Positions 1,270 through 37,134 of a stretch of DNA of 64,000 nt are shown in pieces. Numbering within the stretch: the first letter of the stretch is position 1; each line of letters opens with the position of its first letter. The notes beneath the pieces are model-generated. The model was given only the letters and a program-made list of their open reading frames with translations. It was not told where the DNA came from and made no database searches. Position numbers and translations under genes: made by a program. Source of the DNA: Botrimarina sp. (GTDB lineage: Bacteria > Planctomycetota > Planctomycetia > Pirellulales > Lacipirellulaceae); the NCBI GenBank assembly GCA_965263145.1, contig OZ253585.1, positions 261,668 through 325,667 on the forward strand, in the 5' to 3' direction.

Positions 1270-1668
1270 CTAGTTGGTGAGAGTTGTTTTGAAACTCACG
1301 ACACCATTTACTTCGTGATAGTCTTCTGTCGCCAAGAGTTCCCGTAGCCGGAGTGCTAAGCCCATCGCCGAGCACCCTTCTTCAGTAGCTAACTTCTCAG
1401 CAATAAGCCCTTCGATGTCAGCTTTTGGAAGCTGGCCATCGTTATCCGTAAGAAGCTTATCCATCGCTTGCTTTACCTGCCGCTTCTTAGGAGCCGGTTT
1501 ATTAGTTCCCTCTGCGGGAGTGCCAAGAGCTTTCAAGGCGGCGTTGACTTGACGCTTGGTCGATTTGGCATCGCTCAGGTCTTTTCTTAAGCTTTCAATG
1601 GTCACCTCAATTTCATTCAGCTGGGTTTGCAGCCCATCGCGTATCGCTTCTAAGGTTTTGTTTTTCAT
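1270..1668 (-). CDS. Hypothetical coiled-coil protein (132 aa)
   Basis: Intact ORF immediately downstream of the coupling-protein gene. Charged and alpha-helical, with no recognisable motif. Confidence 0.4.
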   Translation of the reverse strand: MKNKTLEAIRDGLQTQLNEIEVTIESLRKDLSDAKSTKRQVNAALKALGTPAEGTNKPAPKKRQVKQAMDKLLTDNDGQLPKADIEGLIAEKLATEEGCSAMGLALRLRELLATEDYHEVNGVVSFKTTLTN

Positions 1669-4811: not shown

Positions 4812-5414
4812 TTGCTTATGACTTTCGAGATGACCTGTTCAAGTCCTTGTGATACACCTTCTGATGACTCTCTTGATACTGTCACCGATGAAGAACTAAT
4901 GCAATCTTGGCATTTACACCGATGCCAGCGTTGCTTTGAAGCGTGGGCTATGCGTGTATGGAAGGACCCAGGCTACAAAGCCGTTGCAAGTCGAGTTCAG
5001 GTGAACTGGGAGAAGATCGACGTCTCGGAGTTGCGTCAAAAGGCCATCTATGAGTTATGGGACAGACCGAGAGAAATTCGCTTCGTCAAATCTTACTTCC
5101 GGCAGATGTTATTGTGGGCTGCTTACCGGGAGAATGAAGTTAGAAAGAGGCATCAGTCAGCACTTGGAGAGGAGAATGACGAGATTCTAGCAAATGTACA
5201 GGAGGCTCCTCCGATTACAGAAGATCCTCGTACCGAAGATTTGAAAGAGTGCATTGATAAGCTAAGGCCTACTGACTTGCGGCTCACCAAAGCAAGATAT
5301 TACGACGCAGAGCCCCTCAGCAACCTTGCCAGAGACCTAAACAAGTCAATGGATGCCCTCTACCAGCAGCTCGCTCGCATTCGCAAGTTACTCATGCAAT
5401 GCCTGGAAGGATAA
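4812..5414 (+). CDS. Sigma-70/ECF-like regulatory protein (weak)
   Basis: The C-terminal LRLTKARYYDAEPLSNLARDLNKSMDALYQQLARIRKLLMQC resembles the sigma-70 region 4 HTH. FVKSYFRQMLLWAAYRENEVRKRH resembles region 2.3-2.4. First gene of a three-gene overlapping plus-strand operon. Confidence 0.4.
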   Translation: MLMTFEMTCSSPCDTPSDDSLDTVTDEELMQSWHLHRCQRCFEAWAMRVWKDPGYKAVASRVQVNWEKIDVSELRQKAIYELWDRPREIRFVKSYFRQMLLWAAYRENEVRKRHQSALGEENDEILANVQEAPPITEDPRTEDLKECIDKLRPTDLRLTKARYYDAEPLSNLARDLNKSMDALYQQLARIRKLLMQCLEG

Positions 5415-27120: not shown

Positions 27121-27357
27121 AGGTTTAATAGCAGCCACATAACCAAAAAATTAGAGTGGTATCGCCACAGACTTAACACTCTGAGGGTGGACTCGGTTGA
27201 AGGAGGTTGACCAGCACCATGGTAGGCCTGCTAGTCTGACTTTGACTTATTGATTATATTTTCAGGGTGACCATATAGGTGACCGGCTAGCAAGAGAAGC
27301 TGGCGAGACTGTTAGCTGGGGGTCGTTAAGTCACAGCTAAGAAAGACTTTAAGGAAG

Positions 27358-27430
<73 letters not shown>

Positions 27431-33002: not shown

Positions 33003-33075
33003 GTTGTGGTACGGGAATCGAACCCGTGGCTGCTAGATCAATAGTCTAGTGCTCTACCTACTGAGCTAACCAATG
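33003..33075 (-). pseudogene. tRNA-like sequence with non-pairing acceptor stem and non-standard anticodon (ATT). Possible tRNA pseudogene or att remnant.
   Basis: The reverse complement has canonical D arm (TA-GCTC-AGTAGGTA-GAGC), anticodon stem (CTAGA/TCTAG) and T arm (ACGGG-TTCGATT-CCCGT). The 5' acceptor CATTGGT cannot pair with the 3' ACCACAA. The anticodon loop is CTATTGA. Confidence 0.35.
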
Positions 33076-33294
33076 GTGATCTGTCTTCACTTTCGTTAGA
33101 GTCCATGCACGGAACACACTACGCCAACTGCCTGGGGCAGGACGCAGGGCGCCGCTGGCCCAGCGATTTCAAATCTTGCTTGTAGTTCGTCATAAATCCG
33201 CCGGCTAGGAGTTGAATCTACCCTGCTCGTTGGAGCGGTTGGTTCAAAGCCACTTGGGCGCGCCAATGTCCAGTCGATGCGTCGATTTCTTTAG

Positions 33295-33368
33295 TAGCAC
33301 GAAAGGGATTCGAACCCCTATCCACCAAGGTTTGAGCTTGGTCGCTCTGCCTGTTGGCGTACCGTGCC
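33295..33368 (-). tRNA. tRNA, anticodon CAA, class I (short variable loop). Identity uncertain.
   Basis: GGCACGG-TA-CGCC-AACAGGCAG-AGCG-A-CCAAG-CTCAAAC-CTTGG-TGGAT-AGGGG-TTCGAAT-CCCTT-TCGTGCT-A. All stems pair, with G-U at 1-72 and 7-66 and a 3-bp D stem. Anticodon loop CTCAAAC. Confidence 0.55.
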
Positions 33369-33386
33369 AATAAATTATTTCATAAG

Positions 33387-33461
33387 CGTCCCTGATGGGA
33401 TTTGAACCCACGATCTCCTGCGTGACAGGCAGGCGAGCACTCCAGGCTGCTCCACAAGGAC
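33387..33461 (-). tRNA. tRNA-Asp (anticodon GTC)
   Basis: GTCCTTG-TG-GAGC-AGCCTGGAGT-GCTC-G-CCTGC-CTGTCAC-GCAGG-AGATC-GTGGG-TTCAAAT-CCCAT-CAGGGAC-G. The anticodon arm is identical to the E. coli tRNA-Asp arm. Confidence 0.85.
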
Positions 33462-33474
33462 TAAGTTCTACTAG

Positions 33475-33548
33475 TACCCAGGGCAGGATTCGAACCTGCA
33501 AACACCTGATTCTAAGTCAGGTCGCTCAGCCAGTTGGCGTACCTGGGC
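33475..33548 (-). tRNA. tRNA, anticodon TAG, class I. Identity uncertain.
   Basis: GCCCAGG-TA-CGCC-AACTGGCTG-AGCG-A-CCTGA-CTTAGAA-TCAGG-TGTTT-GCAGG-TTCGAAT-CCTGC-CCTGGGT-A. Shares the D-arm sequence with the CAA tRNA. Confidence 0.55.
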
Positions 33549-33667
33549 GTGATGGAATTTGTATTGAGTTAGGGTGGCTGGATTCGAACGATCGAGATCT
33601 CCCGATTCCAAAGCATAAGCTCTATTATTAGTGTTAGGGGGTCCAAGCTATCCTACGCTCTGTTTAG

Positions 33668-33738
33668 TGCGCCCAGCCGGAATCGAACCGACACACCCTG
33701 CATGGCAAGCAGGGAGGCTGCCACTACATCATGAGCGC
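33668..33738 (-). tRNA. tRNA-Gly (anticodon GCC)-like, with irregular D arm
   Basis: Acceptor GCGCTCA/TGGGCGC pairs. Anticodon arm CCTGC-TTGCCAT-GCAGG matches the Gly-GCC loop. T arm GTCGG-TTCGATT-CCGGC. The D-arm region ATGTAGTGGCAGCCTC does not pair cleanly. Confidence 0.5.
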
Positions 33739-34122
33739 CAAGTTTTACTGTGAAGTGCTAAGGCAACAAAAAAGGCCCCGTGTCTTTATGACACAGGGCC
33801 TTGCTATCTCTTAAAGAGTCAGGCCAAGTGTCATGATGCCCTGCCATCACTGCCGAGCGCGCAGCCGGGGTAGAGATATCCTAATATCGCTAGCAGATTA
33901 TCAATCGAGCCACCGTTATTAGGCTGAAGGTTCGTATAGTTTGGTCTTGAATACAACATGGTAGGAATTGCCGTTAATGGCTTTGAGTTGGTGTGTCTGT
34001 GGGCTAAGAGGCAGATCGACAATTTAGGTTCGCAACAAAATAAAAAACCTTCCCAGCTACGAAGCGGAGAAGGTTTATAAGTGAATTGCATCATGCTCTC
34101 TAATCGAAAAGACAAAGAGCCA

Positions 34123-37100
34123 CTATCGCAGATTACCTGCCAAGCAGGCCAATGCGGTAACAAGCATAAGAGCACTCGTTGGTTCAGGTATAGCAACCGA
34201 GGCGGAGGCTTGAATCTGGGTTCCATAATTGGCGGACCATAGATTGTAGTCATCTTGATCTACAACTCCATCAAGGTTGGCATCAGCAGCCAAAGTGATT
34301 CCCGTTTGACCTAGTTCATCTCGCCAGATGGTATAGTCAGCAGCATCAACACTACCATCGTTGTTGAAGTCGCCCATAAGGGTGACCGAGATTTCACCTG
34401 TTGTTAATAACTCGGAAGTGTTCCAAGTTAGCCCAGCTGACAGAGCAGGTAACTGAACTGAATCAAAACTACCTGTAACCGTCGCGAAATCGAGAAGATC
34501 GAAGCTATCACCTGCCTCTGGGGTAAACGATTGGCTTAAGCTAATTGTCAGAGAACCCCCGTCGAGAGTGACATCGCCTTGTACTTCGAGCTTGTCACTG
34601 TTGGCATCGCTGTAGATGTCTAGCTCAAGTGCTGCACCTACCTCGTGCAAGTAGTCTCCTGCGACAAGAATGAAAGCGGGGGACACTAATTGCTCCGTAA
34701 CAACGCTCCCATCAAAAGTAATTCTGGTAGTTACATCCAAGAAGCCATCCGCTTCGTCGCTAAGTACGAGATTATCGATGTGTCCACCCGAATAAACATG
34801 TAATGACCAAAGCTGAATGCCTGCCGTGCCATCATCTTCATCAAAGTCACGGTCATTTAGTAGGTAACTCATATCGGCGCTAGATGACAGACCAGCTTCT
34901 CCAAGACTGACATCCGGGTTAACCCACCATTCGAGTGTATCGTTACCTGTTGCTAAGCTTAATTTACCAACGATAAGCTGAACATCATTGGTGCTTGCAG
35001 TGCTTGGTGAAAAATTACTTAGGTCGTTTGGATTACCGTCAACGAAGAAATCGAGCGTTGCTCCTTGATCTCTTAGCAAAAAGCGATTGTCAAAAATGTT
35101 GCCGTGACCATCAATGTTGATTCCAGCACGACCGCCAGCATCTACTTGTGCCAAGAAGGAAAACCAAACATCTCCATTCAAATCGGTTTGGATAGAACGT
35201 TCGACAGAAGATGCGCCACCAGAAAGTCGTGCCAAATGCTGGCCGTCGCCATCCTGAGTCAGGCCGTAGTTTGTACTTGCTGGGGCAACAAGATCGCCAC
35301 TTACGACATTGATTGTGCCGCCTGAACCGGCGTTCTCCTCTGTATAGGAACTTGACCAGCCAGTACCACCATCCTGTCCCGTAACAACGCCAAGATCGAG
35401 ATCATTGAAGTTTGCAACAACAGGGCCTGATACAGATACAAATTCAGAAGCGACATTAATGGTAGATCCTGAACGAGCAGTTAAGTTACCAAGGATGACG
35501 CCGACACCTTCAACTTTTGAGCCTGTCTGAGATTCGATATCAGCTGCAATAATTTGAGGAAGGGTTTGATTAGCAATAGCTGTTGGTGTGTTAGGCATAC
35601 TTCTCAACTGGAAGGTTTCGCCATTGGCAACAGTCTTTAGGGCGTGAGAGGCAATTCCAAGGTTATTGACTCGGTGTGCTTGGATGTCTTGGTGCACAGC
35701 CCGAAAAGCTTGATAAGCATTACGGTCTTGTCCAACGGTTGCAGCGAGGTTGTTTAATTCCCAAATGTCATTCTGAGTGTCGTAAATCTCGACATAGGCA
35801 GGCAACTCGTCCGATTCATCATCGTAAGTATAGAAAACCTCATAGCGTCCATCGTAACCAGCTAGGATTGGCTTGTTGCCTGCGAAGGTTGATTCCCAGA
35901 TTTCGACGATGTTCGTATTGCGTACCCCAGCACCGTTGCCATTGTCGCTAAACAAGTTCTTGATGCTACTGCCTTGCATGGCTTGAGGGATTTGCGCTCC
36001 AGCGATATCTAAGATTGTGGGTGCAATGTCGACGTTTGAAACTTGACGATCATCCGTACGGCCGGTGTCAACACCAGGACCCATCACCATGAAAGGTACT
36101 CGGGCTGCTTGGTCAAACGGTAGCGACTTACTTGTCATGCCGTGGTCACCAATCATCCATCCGTTATCCGACATGAAGAAGACGTAAGTGTTGTCGATAA
36201 GCATGTGCCCTGGATTACGCGGGTCAGCGGTTGTATTGAGCTTGTCAATTAAGGGAGTTAGCATGTCGTCAAGCTCAGTGATGACGGCATAGTATTCACT
36301 TGTGTGGTCAGCTAGTTCATTGGGATCACCATAGAGATACCGGTTGTCGTTCTGAGCCAGCGTTCGGTTACGAATGTTCTCGTAGTAAGCAGGTTTGTTC
36401 TCTAGGTTGTCGTCCCAGTTACCTGGCAAGTTGTTTACATTGTTGGGAGCATCATAGAAATCAGTCGCATCGTACTTCGCCAAGTTTTCAGGCAACGCAT
36501 CCCAAGCCAAGTTGCCATTTAGGTGAGGTGTTTGGGTGTTGTGCCAGAGAAAGAAAGGCTTGTCAGCGGAGAGAGATTGATCGATGAAGTCAGCCGAGCG
36601 ATCAGCCGCATAGGCATCAATATGTTGGTTGCCAGGTTTAGCTGGGGCATTCGGATCGGAAATGTCTCGATAGTTGCGATAGTAGCTACCATTGCTGTTG
36701 TAAGTTGCGTAGTAATCGAACCCTAAGGCTTGTTGATCAAGTGCATTTCCTAAGTGCCATTTGCCTGTTACGCCGGTCGCGTAGCCTGCGTTTTGAAGTT
36801 CGACACCCAACCGTGGCGAATTGGCGTTAACGCTGTCGCCAAGATTCTCAACACCATTGGTTTGATTGAATTGACCGGTAGTAATTGTCGCACGGGATGG
36901 ACTACAAACAGGTAAGGCAGCACGTGCTTGAGTAAAGCGAACCCCTTGCTGCGCAATCATATCCATGGTTGATGTTTGGATAATGGAATTGCCGTTGGCA
37001 GCCAGTGCGTTGTACTGCTGGTCGTCAGTAAAGATGAAAACAATATTAGGCTGTTGGGCTAATGCCGACTGAGCACATACGAATAACAAGCCTGTGATTA

Positions 37101-37134
37101 AACAACGTAACATGGGATGCCTTTTCAATATCAA
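34123..37134 (-). CDS. Sulfatase (N-terminal) fused to a long beta-rich region with dockerin-like repeat and C-terminal PEP-CTERM anchor
   Basis: Signal peptide. Sulfatase signature PVCSPSRATITTGQ (C-x-P-x-R) and GKWHLG. Near the C-terminus DFNNDGSVDAADYTIWRDELGQ...DANLDGVVDQDDYNLW (dockerin-like). Terminal IPEPTSALMLVTALACLAGNLR is a PEP-CTERM. Confidence 0.8.
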   Translation of the reverse strand: MILKRHPMLRCLITGLLFVCAQSALAQQPNIVFIFTDDQQYNALAANGNSIIQTSTMDMIAQQGVRFTQARAALPVCSPSRATITTGQFNQTNGVENLGDSVNANSPRLGVELQNAGYATGVTGKWHLGNALDQQALGFDYYATYNSNGSYYRNYRDISDPNAPAKPGNQHIDAYAADRSADFIDQSLSADKPFFLWHNTQTPHLNGNLAWDALPENLAKYDATDFYDAPNNVNNLPGNWDDNLENKPAYYENIRNRTLAQNDNRYLYGDPNELADHTSEYYAVITELDDMLTPLIDKLNTTADPRNPGHMLIDNTYVFFMSDNGWMIGDHGMTSKSLPFDQAARVPFMVMGPGVDTGRTDDRQVSNVDIAPTILDIAGAQIPQAMQGSSIKNLFSDNGNGAGVRNTNIVEIWESTFAGNKPILAGYDGRYEVFYTYDDESDELPAYVEIYDTQNDIWELNNLAATVGQDRNAYQAFRAVHQDIQAHRVNNLGIASHALKTVANGETFQLRSMPNTPTAIANQTLPQIIAADIESQTGSKVEGVGVILGNLTARSGSTINVASEFVSVSGPVVANFNDLDLGVVTGQDGGTGWSSSYTEENAGSGGTINVVSGDLVAPASTNYGLTQDGDGQHLARLSGGASSVERSIQTDLNGDVWFSFLAQVDAGGRAGINIDGHGNIFDNRFLLRDQGATLDFFVDGNPNDLSNFSPSTASTNDVQLIVGKLSLATGNDTLEWWVNPDVSLGEAGLSSSADMSYLLNDRDFDEDDGTAGIQLWSLHVYSGGHIDNLVLSDEADGFLDVTTRITFDGSVVTEQLVSPAFILVAGDYLHEVGAALELDIYSDANSDKLEVQGDVTLDGGSLTISLSQSFTPEAGDSFDLLDFATVTGSFDSVQLPALSAGLTWNTSELLTTGEISVTLMGDFNNDGSVDAADYTIWRDELGQTGITLAADANLDGVVDQDDYNLWSANYGTQIQASASVAIPEPTSALMLVTALACLAGNLR

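What the first reader, a model, noticed from the sequence alone, without database searches (positions are those of the whole stretch)
33003..33738. Minus-strand tRNA array with atypical members: class-I tRNAs carrying Leu-type anticodons (CAA, TAG), a tRNA-like gene with unpaired acceptor stem and ATT anticodon, and a degenerate tRNA-like segment
Five T-arm-bearing tRNA-like units are packed within ~740 bp. tRNA-Asp(GTC) is canonical. Two others fold well, but they combine short variable loops (class I) with anticodons CAA and UAG. In bacteria these are normally carried only by long-arm class II tRNA-Leu. The two share an identical D arm. The unit at 33003..33075 has intact D, anticodon and T arms, but its 3' acceptor strand (ACCACAA) cannot pair with the 5' strand (CATTGGT), and it carries anticodon ATT. 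That is compatible with a disrupted tRNA or an integration-site scar. A further T-loop-like segment at ~33565..33650 (GATCG-TTCGAAT-CCAGC) does not fold. The Gly(GCC)-like unit has a poor D stem.
Basis: seen in the sequence. Interest (0 to 1): 0.6.

Follow-up and report, generated by a model that had tools for sequence, protein, structure and literature searches.

The report
Short-arm leucine tRNAs in decaying cluster
This is a partly decayed cluster of transfer-RNA genes whose two odd-looking "short" leucine tRNAs belong to a large, conserved family that is common in phage tRNA clusters and in tRNA arrays of Planctomycetota, so it is real and tidy but not a new kind of thing.

Summary
On the minus strand of 33003-33738, ARAGORN and Rfam find tRNA-Gly(GCC), tRNA-Leu(UAG), tRNA-Asp(GUC) and tRNA-Leu(CAA). 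Rfam alone finds a fifth tRNA-like unit, with only 4 acceptor pairs and the loop CUAUUGA. A sixth segment is degenerate.

The anticodons are correctly registered, and both Leu tRNAs are 75 nt with a 5-nt variable loop. They are not one-off oddities.

- The same D arm marks 30 short tRNA-Leu genes in 12 Planctomycetota genomes, about 150 in IMG/VR viral contigs, and annotated 74-78-nt tRNA-Leu genes in cultured phages such as Felixounavirus wV8 and Bixzunavirus Lukilu.
- Of 116 distinct viral members, 115 carry a Leu anticodon. All have A73, A14 and U48.
- The cloverleaf shows compensatory changes at 16 of 20 pairs.
- tRNA-Ser in the same clusters keeps its long arm.
- A family model built without the window scores its two copies at 86 and 82 bits.
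- The gene order Gly, (Pro), Leu-UAG, Asp, Leu-CAA recurs in relatives.

The degenerate segment is a decayed tRNA-Pro(UGG). The ATT unit is a pseudogene, not an integration scar.

A type I tRNA-Leu that LeuRS charges is already known in Streptomyces coelicolor. Verdict: new member of a known kind. Charging by the host enzyme is inferred, not shown.

The parts
33667..33738 (-). tRNA-Gly(GCC), array type. It has the conserved U11.C24 D-stem mismatch. The discriminator is A73, where all relatives have U73.
   Evidence: ARAGORN. Rfam 49.3 bits. Closest relatives are the array tRNA-Gly(GCC) genes of L015, L007, L019 and L013 and of the viral contigs L127 and L131.
33568..33655 (-). Decayed tRNA-Pro(UGG)-like pseudogene. 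The 3' half (anticodon loop, T arm, 3' acceptor strand) is recognisable. The D-arm region is disrupted.
   Evidence: Local alignment to the L015 tRNA-Pro(tgg) scores 37, against a maximum of 27 in 100 shuffles. No Rfam hit. Folding z = -1.2. A Pro gene directly follows Gly(gcc) in L015 and L127.
33474..33548 (-). Class I (5-nt variable loop) tRNA-Leu(UAG), with G1.U72 and A73.
   Evidence: ARAGORN. Rfam 57.3 bits. Family model R1 gives 86.0 bits.
33386..33461 (-). Canonical tRNA-Asp(GUC).
   Evidence: ARAGORN. Rfam 57.1 bits. Close to the array tRNA-Asp genes of L015, L010 and L005; 72 of 77 aligned columns match the L127 gene.
33294..33368 (-). Class I tRNA-Leu(CAA), with G1.U72 and A73.
   Evidence: ARAGORN. 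Rfam 46.9 bits. Family model R1 gives 82.2 bits.
33201..33237 (-). Possible remnant of a tRNA-Arg(UCG) 3' half inside the 218-nt spacer. Not statistically supported.
   Evidence: Local alignment scores 30, against a shuffle maximum of 33. No Rfam or R1 hit.
33003..33075 (-). tRNA pseudogene. The D, anticodon and T arms are intact. Only 4 inner acceptor pairs remain. The loop is CUAUUGA (anticodon AUU, G37).
   Evidence: Rfam 55.3 bits over model positions 4-67 only; ARAGORN does not call it. No flanking helix restores an acceptor stem. No relative found other than generic Lys-like or Arg-like bodies.
33772..33802 (-). Intrinsic terminator of the upstream sulfatase gene. It marks the 5' boundary of the tRNA cluster.
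   Evidence: Stem of 13 pairs followed by a T-run. Sulfatase ORF at 34123-37134.

Best explanation
The region is a short, partly decayed remnant of the kind of tRNA gene array found in Planctomycetota chromosomes and in phage genomes. It holds four intact-looking genes (Gly-GCC, Leu-UAG, Asp-GUC, Leu-CAA), at least two pseudogenes (a decayed Pro-UGG and the 'ATT' unit) and possibly a third remnant.

The two short Leu-anticodon tRNAs are genuine members of a conserved class I tRNA-Leu family. They keep the tRNA-Leu D arm: a 3-bp stem, N13.A22, and a 9-nt loop A14-A15-Y-N-G18-G19-Y-A-G. They also keep A15 with U48, and A73. Only the long variable arm has been replaced, by 5 nt.

Shown:
- family membership;
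- purifying selection on the cloverleaf;
- restriction of the family to Leu anticodons;
- shared gene order with relatives.

Inferred:
- They are leucylated by the host LeuRS through A73 and the D-arm/tertiary-core determinants. Bacterial LeuRS does not read the anticodon, and it can work without the variable arm.
- They decode UUG and CUA/CUN as extra or specialised Leu isoacceptors.
- The cluster as a whole is under relaxed selection, given the pseudogenes and the Gly A73 change.
For: **Calls and scores.** ARAGORN and Rfam calls and alignments.

**Distribution.**
- The D-arm pattern recovers tRNA clusters in 12 Planctomycetota genomes or MAGs and 3 viral contigs. There, 30 of 32 tRNA-Leu genes are <=80 nt, while 11 of 11 tRNA-Ser genes stay >80 nt.
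- A relaxed pattern recovers 98 further IMG/VR loci, with 149 class I and 33 class II tRNA-Leu genes.
- 234 INPHARED phage records match one viral member. Among them, wV8 and Lukilu carry annotated 74-78-nt tRNA-Leu genes.

**Selection on structure.** Across 33 distinct sequences, 98.5% of cells are paired and 16 of 20 pairs show compensatory changes, with 0 of 500 shuffles as good.

**Leu identity.** Among 116 distinct viral members, the anticodons are CAA 32, UAA 31, UAG 26, GAG 15, CAG 9 and AAG 2. All have A73, A14 and U48, and 115 have A15.

**Family model.** Model R1, built without the window, scores the two window copies at 86.0 and 82.2 bits. The family range is about 65-91. Class II tRNA-Leu scores 39-49. 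The best other tRNA in the window scores 60.7.

**Gene order.** Leu(tag)-Asp-Leu(caa) recurs in L005 and L127, and Gly(gcc) followed by Pro recurs in L015 and L127.

**Pseudogene.** The decayed Pro alignment is significant against shuffles.

**Precedent.** S. coelicolor type I tRNA-Leu(CAA) is leucylated by its LeuRS, and the variable-arm stem is dispensable there (PMC6614811).
Against: - No expression or charging data exist for this locus.
- E. coli LeuRS and one Streptomyces LeuRS failed to charge the S. coelicolor type I tRNA-Leu (PMC6614811). Charging therefore depends on the host enzyme and is not guaranteed.
- No sigma-70-like promoter was predicted upstream. Planctomycete promoters are poorly covered by that scan.
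- Neighbouring pseudogenes and the Gly A73 change show that the cluster is eroding, so the intact-looking genes may be silent.
- Whether the genome also has class II genes for the same Leu anticodons could not be checked from a 64-kb window.
- The loci used to count class I against class II Leu were selected by a class I pattern. That ratio is biased. The Ser and Tyr controls are not.
Confidence: 0.8

Rival explanations
1. The two class I tRNAs are recoding or mistranslating tRNAs. On this reading they have the body of another amino-acid identity but have acquired Leu anticodons, so UUG and CUA codons are read as a different amino acid.
For: - Class I architecture with Leu anticodons is not the housekeeping bacterial norm (PMC6614811).
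- LeuRS does not read the anticodon, so anticodon and identity can in principle be uncoupled.
- A few relatives with the same D arm carry non-Leu anticodons: GUG in L038, L084 and L094, and CUA in L068.
Against: - The D arm has the size and layout of class II tRNA-Leu, as seen by comparing the L005 class II gene with the class I genes.
- A73, A14, A15 and U48 are invariant or nearly so.
- 115 of 116 distinct family members carry a Leu anticodon, and all six Leu anticodons occur.
- No G3.U70 (Ala identity) occurs. Pair 3-70 is only C-G or U-A.
- The long arm needed for Ser identity is absent.
Confidence: 0.05
2. All units, including the two Leu tRNAs, are dead relics of a horizontally acquired array. 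On this reading they are neither transcribed nor used, and their good folds only reflect recent acquisition.
For: - At least two pseudogenes lie in the same 740 bp.
- The window tRNA-Gly has A73, where nine relatives have U73.
- The window Leu(UAG) has U at a D-loop position that is A in the other 32 aligned Planctomycetota and viral sequences and in 115 of 116 further viral sequences.
- No promoter was predicted.
- In Anabaena, 3 of the 26 array tRNAs are pseudogenes (PMC8421152).
Against: - The two Leu genes score at the top of the family range on a model built without them (86 and 82 bits).
- All 20 modelled cloverleaf pairs (acceptor, 3-bp D, anticodon and T stems) are standard pairs in both.
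- Spacers between Leu-UAG, Asp and Leu-CAA are 12 and 17 nt, typical of co-transcribed clusters.
- In Anabaena, 23 of the 26 array tRNAs were detected and aminoacylated under induction (PMC8421152).
Confidence: 0.15
3. The ATT unit at 33003-33075 is an integration-site scar (att remnant) left by a mobile element that targeted a tRNA gene.
For: - tRNA genes are common integration targets.
- The unit's ends do not pair.
- An unrelated metagenome contig (L025) shows what such a scar looks like: a truncated 5' part of tRNA-Arg(ACG), with an intact copy 4 kb away.
Against: - A scar keeps one tRNA end intact and replaces the other. Here the core (model positions 4-67) is intact, and the outer three acceptor pairs are broken with no intact terminus recognisable.
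- There is no direct repeat of any part of the unit within 7.5 kb.
- No integrase or recombinase domain was found in the neighbouring ORFs scanned.
- The anticodon loop is also mutated to a combination that is not used (A34, U36, G37).
Confidence: 0.05

Closest known systems
Type I tRNA-Leu(CAA) of Streptomyces coelicolor (Fan et al. 2019, PMC6614811)
   Same: It is a bacterial tRNA with a Leu anticodon and a 5-nt variable loop, and it coexists with class II tRNA-Leu. It is experimentally leucylated by the single host LeuRS. The U8-A14 pair is an identity element, and the length of the variable loop matters rather than its sequence.
   Different: - In S. coelicolor it is a single gene for one isoacceptor; attempts to knock it out failed. 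Here the family covers all Leu anticodons and sits in multi-tRNA clusters.
- In S. coelicolor A73 is not an identity element. Here A73 is invariant.
74-78-nt tRNA-Leu genes annotated in cultured phages (e.g. Escherichia phage wV8 NC_012749, Mycobacterium phage Lukilu NC_041901)
   Same: They have the same D-arm signature, 5-nt variable loop, A73 and Leu anticodons. They score 73-79 bits on the same family model. They sit in tRNA clusters next to long-arm tRNA-Ser.
   Different: - These are phage-borne, and many encode the 3' CCA.
- The window copies are chromosomal, lack an encoded CCA, and are closer in sequence to the Planctomycetota array copies than to the phage copies.
Long tRNA gene arrays, also called tRNA array units (Tran et al. 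2016, PMC4758250; Santamaria-Gomez et al. 2021, PMC8421152)
   Same: They are dense clusters of tRNA genes with short spacers. They include pseudogenes, have a patchy phylogenetic distribution that includes Planctomycetes, and have similar arrays in phages and other mobile elements. They contribute supernumerary tRNAs.
   Different: The window cluster has only 4-5 genes, far below the >=20 of the published definition. It is best read as a fragment or remnant that shares gene order with parts of such arrays (L005, L007, L015, L127).
Mitochondrial type I tRNA-Leu
   Same: It has a short variable loop, a Leu anticodon and A73 (PMC6614811 introduction).
   Different: It is organellar, often has a reduced D/T-loop interaction, and is charged by a dedicated mitochondrial LeuRS. 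No sequence relationship was tested or is claimed.

Membership tests
tRNA (Rfam RF00005) | Cloverleaf sequence and structure scoring at or above the gathering score of 29 bits | tested here: met
   Five units score 46.9-57.3 bits. The unit at 33007-33072 matches only model positions 4-67. The degenerate segment has no hit at E<=10.
Class I tRNA-Leu family of phage clusters and Planctomycetota arrays | Length of 74-78 nt with a variable loop of about 5 nt, not a long arm | tested here: met
   Both genes are 75 nt including one trailing base. Their variable loops are UGUUU and UGGAU.
Class I tRNA-Leu family of phage clusters and Planctomycetota arrays | Anticodon from the Leu codon boxes (NAG or YAA) | tested here: met
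   The window genes carry UAG and CAA. 115 of 116 distinct viral members also carry Leu anticodons.
Class I tRNA-Leu family of phage clusters and Planctomycetota arrays | tRNA-Leu-type D arm (3-bp stem, N13.A22, A14, A15, G18, G19 in a 9-nt loop), plus U48 and A73 | tested here: met
   Both window genes have all of these. The one deviation is U instead of A at the D-loop position after C20 in Leu(UAG).
Class I tRNA-Leu family of phage clusters and Planctomycetota arrays | Score within the family range on a covariance model built from other members | tested here: met
   The window genes score 86.0 and 82.2 bits, against a family range of about 65-91. Class II tRNA-Leu scores 39-49.
Class I tRNA-Leu family of phage clusters and Planctomycetota arrays | Aminoacylation with leucine by LeuRS | not testable with these tools
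   The only evidence is a precedent: S. coelicolor LeuRS charges its type I tRNA-Leu, but E. coli LeuRS does not (PMC6614811).
Canonical bacterial class II tRNA-Leu | Long variable arm (more than 10 nt, a stem-loop) | tested here: not met
   Both window genes have 5-nt variable loops. Class II examples in relatives are 85-86 nt (L005 3878-3963 and L015 5488-5572).
tRNA array unit as defined by Tran et al. 2016 | At least 20 tRNA genes | tested here: not met
   The window has 4 ARAGORN genes, 1 Rfam-only unit and 1-2 remnants. The definition is quoted from the PMC4758250 abstract.
tRNA array unit as defined by Tran et al. 2016 | Density of at least 2 tRNA genes per kb | tested here: met
   5 units lie within 736 bp.
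tRNA-gene integration scar (att site) | A partial tRNA copy with one native end, a matching direct repeat elsewhere, and an integrase nearby | tested here: not met
   No direct repeat of the ATT unit was found. No integrase domain was found among the neighbouring ORFs scanned. The outer three acceptor pairs are broken around an intact core, and neither terminus looks native.
Suppressor or stop-codon-recoding tRNA | Anticodon complementary to a stop codon (CUA, UUA or UCA) | tested here: not met
   The anticodons are GCC, UAG, GUC, CAA and AUU. The nearest database relative of the ATT unit is annotated tRNA-Sup-CTA in Stenotrophomonas phage DLP_5, but the window unit reads AUU.

The most novel reading that the evidence does not exclude
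Loss of the long variable arm from tRNA-Leu, but not from tRNA-Ser or tRNA-Tyr, may be a selected hallmark of mobile (phage-derived) tRNA sets. One possible reason is that an arm-less tRNA-Leu escapes host nucleases or toxins that recognise class II tRNAs or cut in the variable region, while still being charged by LeuRS. On this reading, the Planctomycetota chromosomal clusters, including this one, are domesticated or decaying copies of such phage arrays. I found no paper in the searchable library that describes this family or proposes this role.
Probability: 0.15. Interest if true: 0.6.

Novelty: new member of a known kind. Interest (0 to 1): 0.35.

Why it matters
**For this window.** The result turns an apparent genetic-code oddity into an ordinary if untidy locus. 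No sense-codon reassignment needs to be invoked. Annotation can call both genes tRNA-Leu and the two decayed units pseudogenes.

**More broadly.** The one biochemical paper on the subject says almost all bacterial tRNA-Leu are type II. Arm-less tRNA-Leu genes are in fact abundant in phage tRNA clusters and in Planctomycetota arrays, with invariant A73, A14 and U48 and near-invariant A15.

That gives a ready-made natural data set for asking which LeuRS enzymes accept arm-less tRNA-Leu. It also allows asking why mobile tRNA sets drop this arm while keeping that of tRNA-Ser.

Tried and rejected
- **Mis-registered anticodons.** Rejected. The Rfam alignments place UAG and CAA at positions 34-36 in 7-nt loops closed by 5-bp stems.
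- **Finding the source genome by exact protein look-up.** Two proteins were tried and neither is on record.
- **Flank synteny between the window and the fetched loci.** tblastn with eight window proteins found nothing, so the clusters sit in different chromosomal contexts.
- **Origin of the ATT unit.**
  - A scan for its anticodon arm with any anticodon gave 0 viral hits and 1 metagenome hit. The metagenome hit is a truncated tRNA-Arg(ACG) in an unrelated contig.
  - The closest full-length relative is a Lys-like suppressor tRNA of Stenotrophomonas phage DLP_5.
  - Descent from Lys(YUU) or from Arg(ACG) each needs two loop substitutions, so the ancestry is left open.
- **Further class I tRNA-Leu remnants in the window.** None found. 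Model R1 with filters off gave no additional hits.
- **Arg(UCG)-like remnant in the 218-nt spacer.** Not significant: score 30 against a shuffle maximum of 33.
- **Whether the array-bearing viral contigs are truly phage.** L127 has a serine-recombinase-like ORF and a topoisomerase-like ORF. L131 has nothing diagnostic. This is inconclusive. The Planctomycetota arrays are flanked by ordinary planctomycete genes.
- **A sigma-70 promoter upstream of the cluster.** None predicted.
- **Literature.** Eight searches found no explicit description of the phage or array class I tRNA-Leu family.
Full report
**1. What is in the sequence**

ARAGORN finds four tRNA genes on the minus strand of the flagged interval:
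- Gly(gcc) 33738-33667
- Leu(tag) 33548-33474
- Asp(gtc) 33461-33386
- Leu(caa) 33368-33294

Rfam's tRNA model hits the same four at 47-57 bits. It also hits a fifth unit, 33072-33007, at 55 bits, but only over model positions 4-67. The D, anticodon and T arms of that unit are intact. Only the four inner acceptor pairs can form. ARAGORN does not call it. Its anticodon loop reads CUAUUGA.

The Rfam alignments place UAG and CAA at positions 34-36 of normal 7-nt loops. They show 5-nt variable loops in both Leu-anticodon genes. The segment between Gly and Leu(tag) gives no tRNA hit at E<=10, and its folding energy is unremarkable (z = -1.2).

**2. Context**

The window looks like a Planctomycetota chromosome. 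It carries a DUF1559 plus N-terminal-methylation protein, PEP-CTERM proteins, sulfatases with dockerin, and a formylglycine-generating enzyme. The cluster starts 33 nt after a strong terminator that ends a sulfatase gene. It is followed by about 450 nt without a convincing gene and then an SPFH-domain gene. No integrase or transposase domain was found among the neighbouring ORFs scanned against Pfam.

**3. The short Leu tRNAs belong to a family**

*Planctomycetota and first viral hits.* The two genes share the D-arm string GTACGCCAACNGGCNGAGCGAC. Scanning for it found 3 IMG/VR viral contigs and 20 stretches in species-representative genomes.
- Seven of the 20 are chance matches in non-tRNA DNA, and one is a 5' tRNA fragment.
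- The other 12 are all Planctomycetota (Isosphaeraceae, Gemmataceae, Planctomycetaceae, Maioricimonas, Stieleria and others). Each lies in a tRNA cluster of 4 to 27 genes.
- In those clusters 30 of 32 tRNA-Leu genes are <=80 nt and cover the anticodons UAA, CAA, UAG, CAG and GAG. All 11 tRNA-Ser genes keep the long arm.

*Wider phage distribution.*
- A relaxed pattern in IMG/VR gave 98 further loci, with 149 short and 33 long tRNA-Leu genes. In the viral loci together, 39 of 41 tRNA-Ser and 25 of 28 tRNA-Tyr genes stay long.
- The Leu ratio is biased by how the loci were chosen. The Ser and Tyr figures are not.
- One viral member used as a BLAST query matched 234 annotated phage records from many host genera.
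- In Escherichia phage wV8 and Mycobacterium phage Lukilu, the matching genes are annotated tRNA-Leu and are 74-78 nt long.

**4. Evidence that the family is functional and Leu-specific**

- An alignment of 33 distinct Planctomycetota and viral sequences, including the two from the window, forms the class I cloverleaf in 98.5% of cells. Compensatory changes occur at 16 of 20 pairs, and no shuffle of 500 does as well. Slid controls drop to 39-48% paired.
- A covariance model built from 25 members without the window scores the window genes at 86.0 and 82.2 bits. The next best tRNA in the window, Lys-CUU, scores 60.7, and the others score <=35.
- Untrained members from cultured phages score 73-79 bits. 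Class II tRNA-Leu scores 39-49.
- Among 116 distinct viral matches, the anticodons are CAA 32, UAA 31, UAG 26, GAG 15, CAG 9 and AAG 2, with one gapped. A73, A14, U8 and U48 are present in all 116, and A15 in 115. G1.U72 occurs in 42.
- The D arm has the same size and layout as that of class II tRNA-Leu. Compare GUG-GCG-G-AAUUGGCAG-A-CGC-G in the L005 class II gene with GUA-CGC-C-AACUGGCAG-A-GCG-A in the class I genes (sequences).
- A73, A14, the A15-U48 pair and the placement of G18G19 are the published E. coli tRNA-Leu identity elements (introduction of PMC6614811).
- No G3.U70 occurs.

These are therefore tRNA-Leu genes that have lost the long arm. They are not tRNAs of another identity carrying borrowed anticodons.

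**5. The cluster is a remnant of a larger array**

- The order Leu(tag)-Asp-Leu(caa) recurs in the Isosphaeraceae locus L005 and in the viral-classified contig L127.
- Gly(gcc) is directly followed by a tRNA-Pro in L015 and L127.
- The degenerate window segment sits in exactly that place. Its 3' half aligns to the L015 tRNA-Pro(UGG): UGG in the loop, the T arm and the 3' acceptor strand. The score is 37, against a maximum of 27 in 100 shuffles.
- A possible Arg(UCG)-like remnant in the 218-nt spacer is not significant.
- The weak D stem of Gly(GCC), with its U11.C24 mismatch, is shared by the array tRNA-Gly genes of L007, L013, L015 and L019, so it is a lineage trait. The same D-arm string, used as a search pattern, recovered tRNA-Gly genes in five viral contigs. 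The window copy differs by having A73 where all nine relatives have U73. From general knowledge of GlyRS identity, U73 matters, so this copy may be impaired.

**6. The ATT unit**

- No helix from the flanks can replace the missing acceptor pairs.
- No part of the unit is repeated nearby.
- Its anticodon arm, searched with any anticodon, is absent from IMG/VR. It occurs once in the metagenome collection, in a truncated tRNA-Arg(ACG) of an unrelated contig.
- The closest full-length relative among about 900 tRNAs at hand is a Lys-like suppressor tRNA of Stenotrophomonas phage DLP_5.
- Either ancestry needs two substitutions in the loop. AUU with G37 is not a combination that bacteria use (general knowledge).

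I read the unit as a pseudogene with mutated ends and a mutated anticodon. A scar would keep one native end.

**7. How it most likely works**

- *Shown.* The two genes are intact members of a selected, Leu-restricted class I family, inside a cluster that shares gene order with larger arrays and is losing members.
- *Inferred.* The tRNAs are transcribed with their neighbours (spacers of 12 and 17 nt) and receive CCA post-transcriptionally, since none is encoded. They are leucylated by the host LeuRS through A73 and the D-arm/core elements, and then read UUG and CUA/CUN.
- *Precedent.* S. coelicolor LeuRS charges its type I tRNA-Leu(CAA), and the variable-arm stem of its type II tRNA is dispensable (PMC6614811).
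- *Caveat.* E. coli LeuRS and one Streptomyces LeuRS did not charge that tRNA. Acceptance depends on the enzyme and has to be tested here.
- *Role of arrays.* Published work shows arrays that spread horizontally, contain pseudogenes and are used under translational stress (PMC8421152; PMC4758250). An anti-defence role has been proposed for mycobacterial arrays (PMC12803027). Which role applies here is unknown.

**8. Novelty**

A bacterial type I tRNA-Leu is published. Short tRNA-Leu genes are routinely annotated in phage genomes. tRNA arrays are known in Planctomycetes. The window adds two further members and a decaying cluster, so it is a new member of a known kind.

What I did not find in the searchable literature is any statement that arm-less tRNA-Leu is a widespread, conserved feature of phage and array tRNA sets. 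The one biochemical paper says almost all bacterial tRNA-Leu are type II. That gap is the basis of the novel reading given separately.

Noticed in passing
window 33667-33738 (-): The window tRNA-Gly(GCC) has discriminator A73. All nine related array or viral tRNA-Gly genes with the same unusual D arm have U73. This may mean the copy is impaired.
   Followed up: partly
window 27357-27430 (-): A lone tRNA-Lys(CUU) lies 6 kb from the cluster (73.7 bits on Rfam). It is not close to the array-type Lys genes and is probably a housekeeping gene. It scores 60.7 bits on the class I Leu model because its D loop is similar.
   Followed up: partly
window 33831-34253 (-): A 140-aa ORF overlaps the 3' end of the sulfatase gene (34123-37134). 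It has no Pfam match and is not on record as a called gene. It is probably spurious.
   Followed up: partly
L068 (IMGVR_UViG_3300005258_000001), about 5140-5215: A viral tRNA has the class I Leu-type D arm but anticodon CUA, which would make it an amber suppressor. It is a candidate for TAG-to-Leu reading in a phage.
   Followed up: no
L038, L084, L094 (IMG/VR contigs): The same 75-nt tRNA occurs in three viral contigs. It has the class I Leu-type D arm but anticodon GUG (His). Its identity is unclear.
   Followed up: no
L005 7502-7573 (+): The Isosphaeraceae array carries tRNA-Gly with anticodon ACC (A34) at the position where the window has Gly(GCC).
   Followed up: no
L023 1046-1120 (+) and L007 2993-3087 (-): Two array members have aberrant anticodon loops. 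One is an Asp-like body that ARAGORN reads with a 2-nt anticodon. The other is a 95-nt unit read with a 4-nt anticodon (cggg). They are likely pseudogenes or unusual tRNAs.
   Followed up: no
L015 4989-5060 (+): A 72-nt stretch between Glu(ctc) and Asp(gtc) scores 65 bits on the class I Leu model, but ARAGORN does not call it.
   Followed up: no
L020 about 1500-1545 (+): An isolated 5' fragment of a class I tRNA-Leu (GCCCAGGTACGCCAACCGGCAGAGCGAC...) lies in a Planctomycetota MAG next to other tRNA genes. It is a further sign that these clusters decay.
   Followed up: partly
L025 750-797 (+) and 4820-4894 (+): An unrelated metagenome contig has a truncated 5' part of tRNA-Arg(ACG), with an intact tRNA-Arg(ACG) 4 kb downstream. 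This is the pattern expected of an element integrated into a tRNA gene.
   Followed up: partly
L002 4045-4349 (-) and L004 5018-5322 (+): Viral contigs with class I tRNA-Leu arrays also encode a tmRNA (tag peptide ANENFALAA) directly next to the tRNA genes.
   Followed up: no
L013 3468-6935 (+): Next to a 23-gene Gemmataceae tRNA array lies a 1155-aa TPR protein with a C-terminal tRNA_anti-like (OB-fold) domain (Pfam PF12869, E 1e-6).
   Followed up: no
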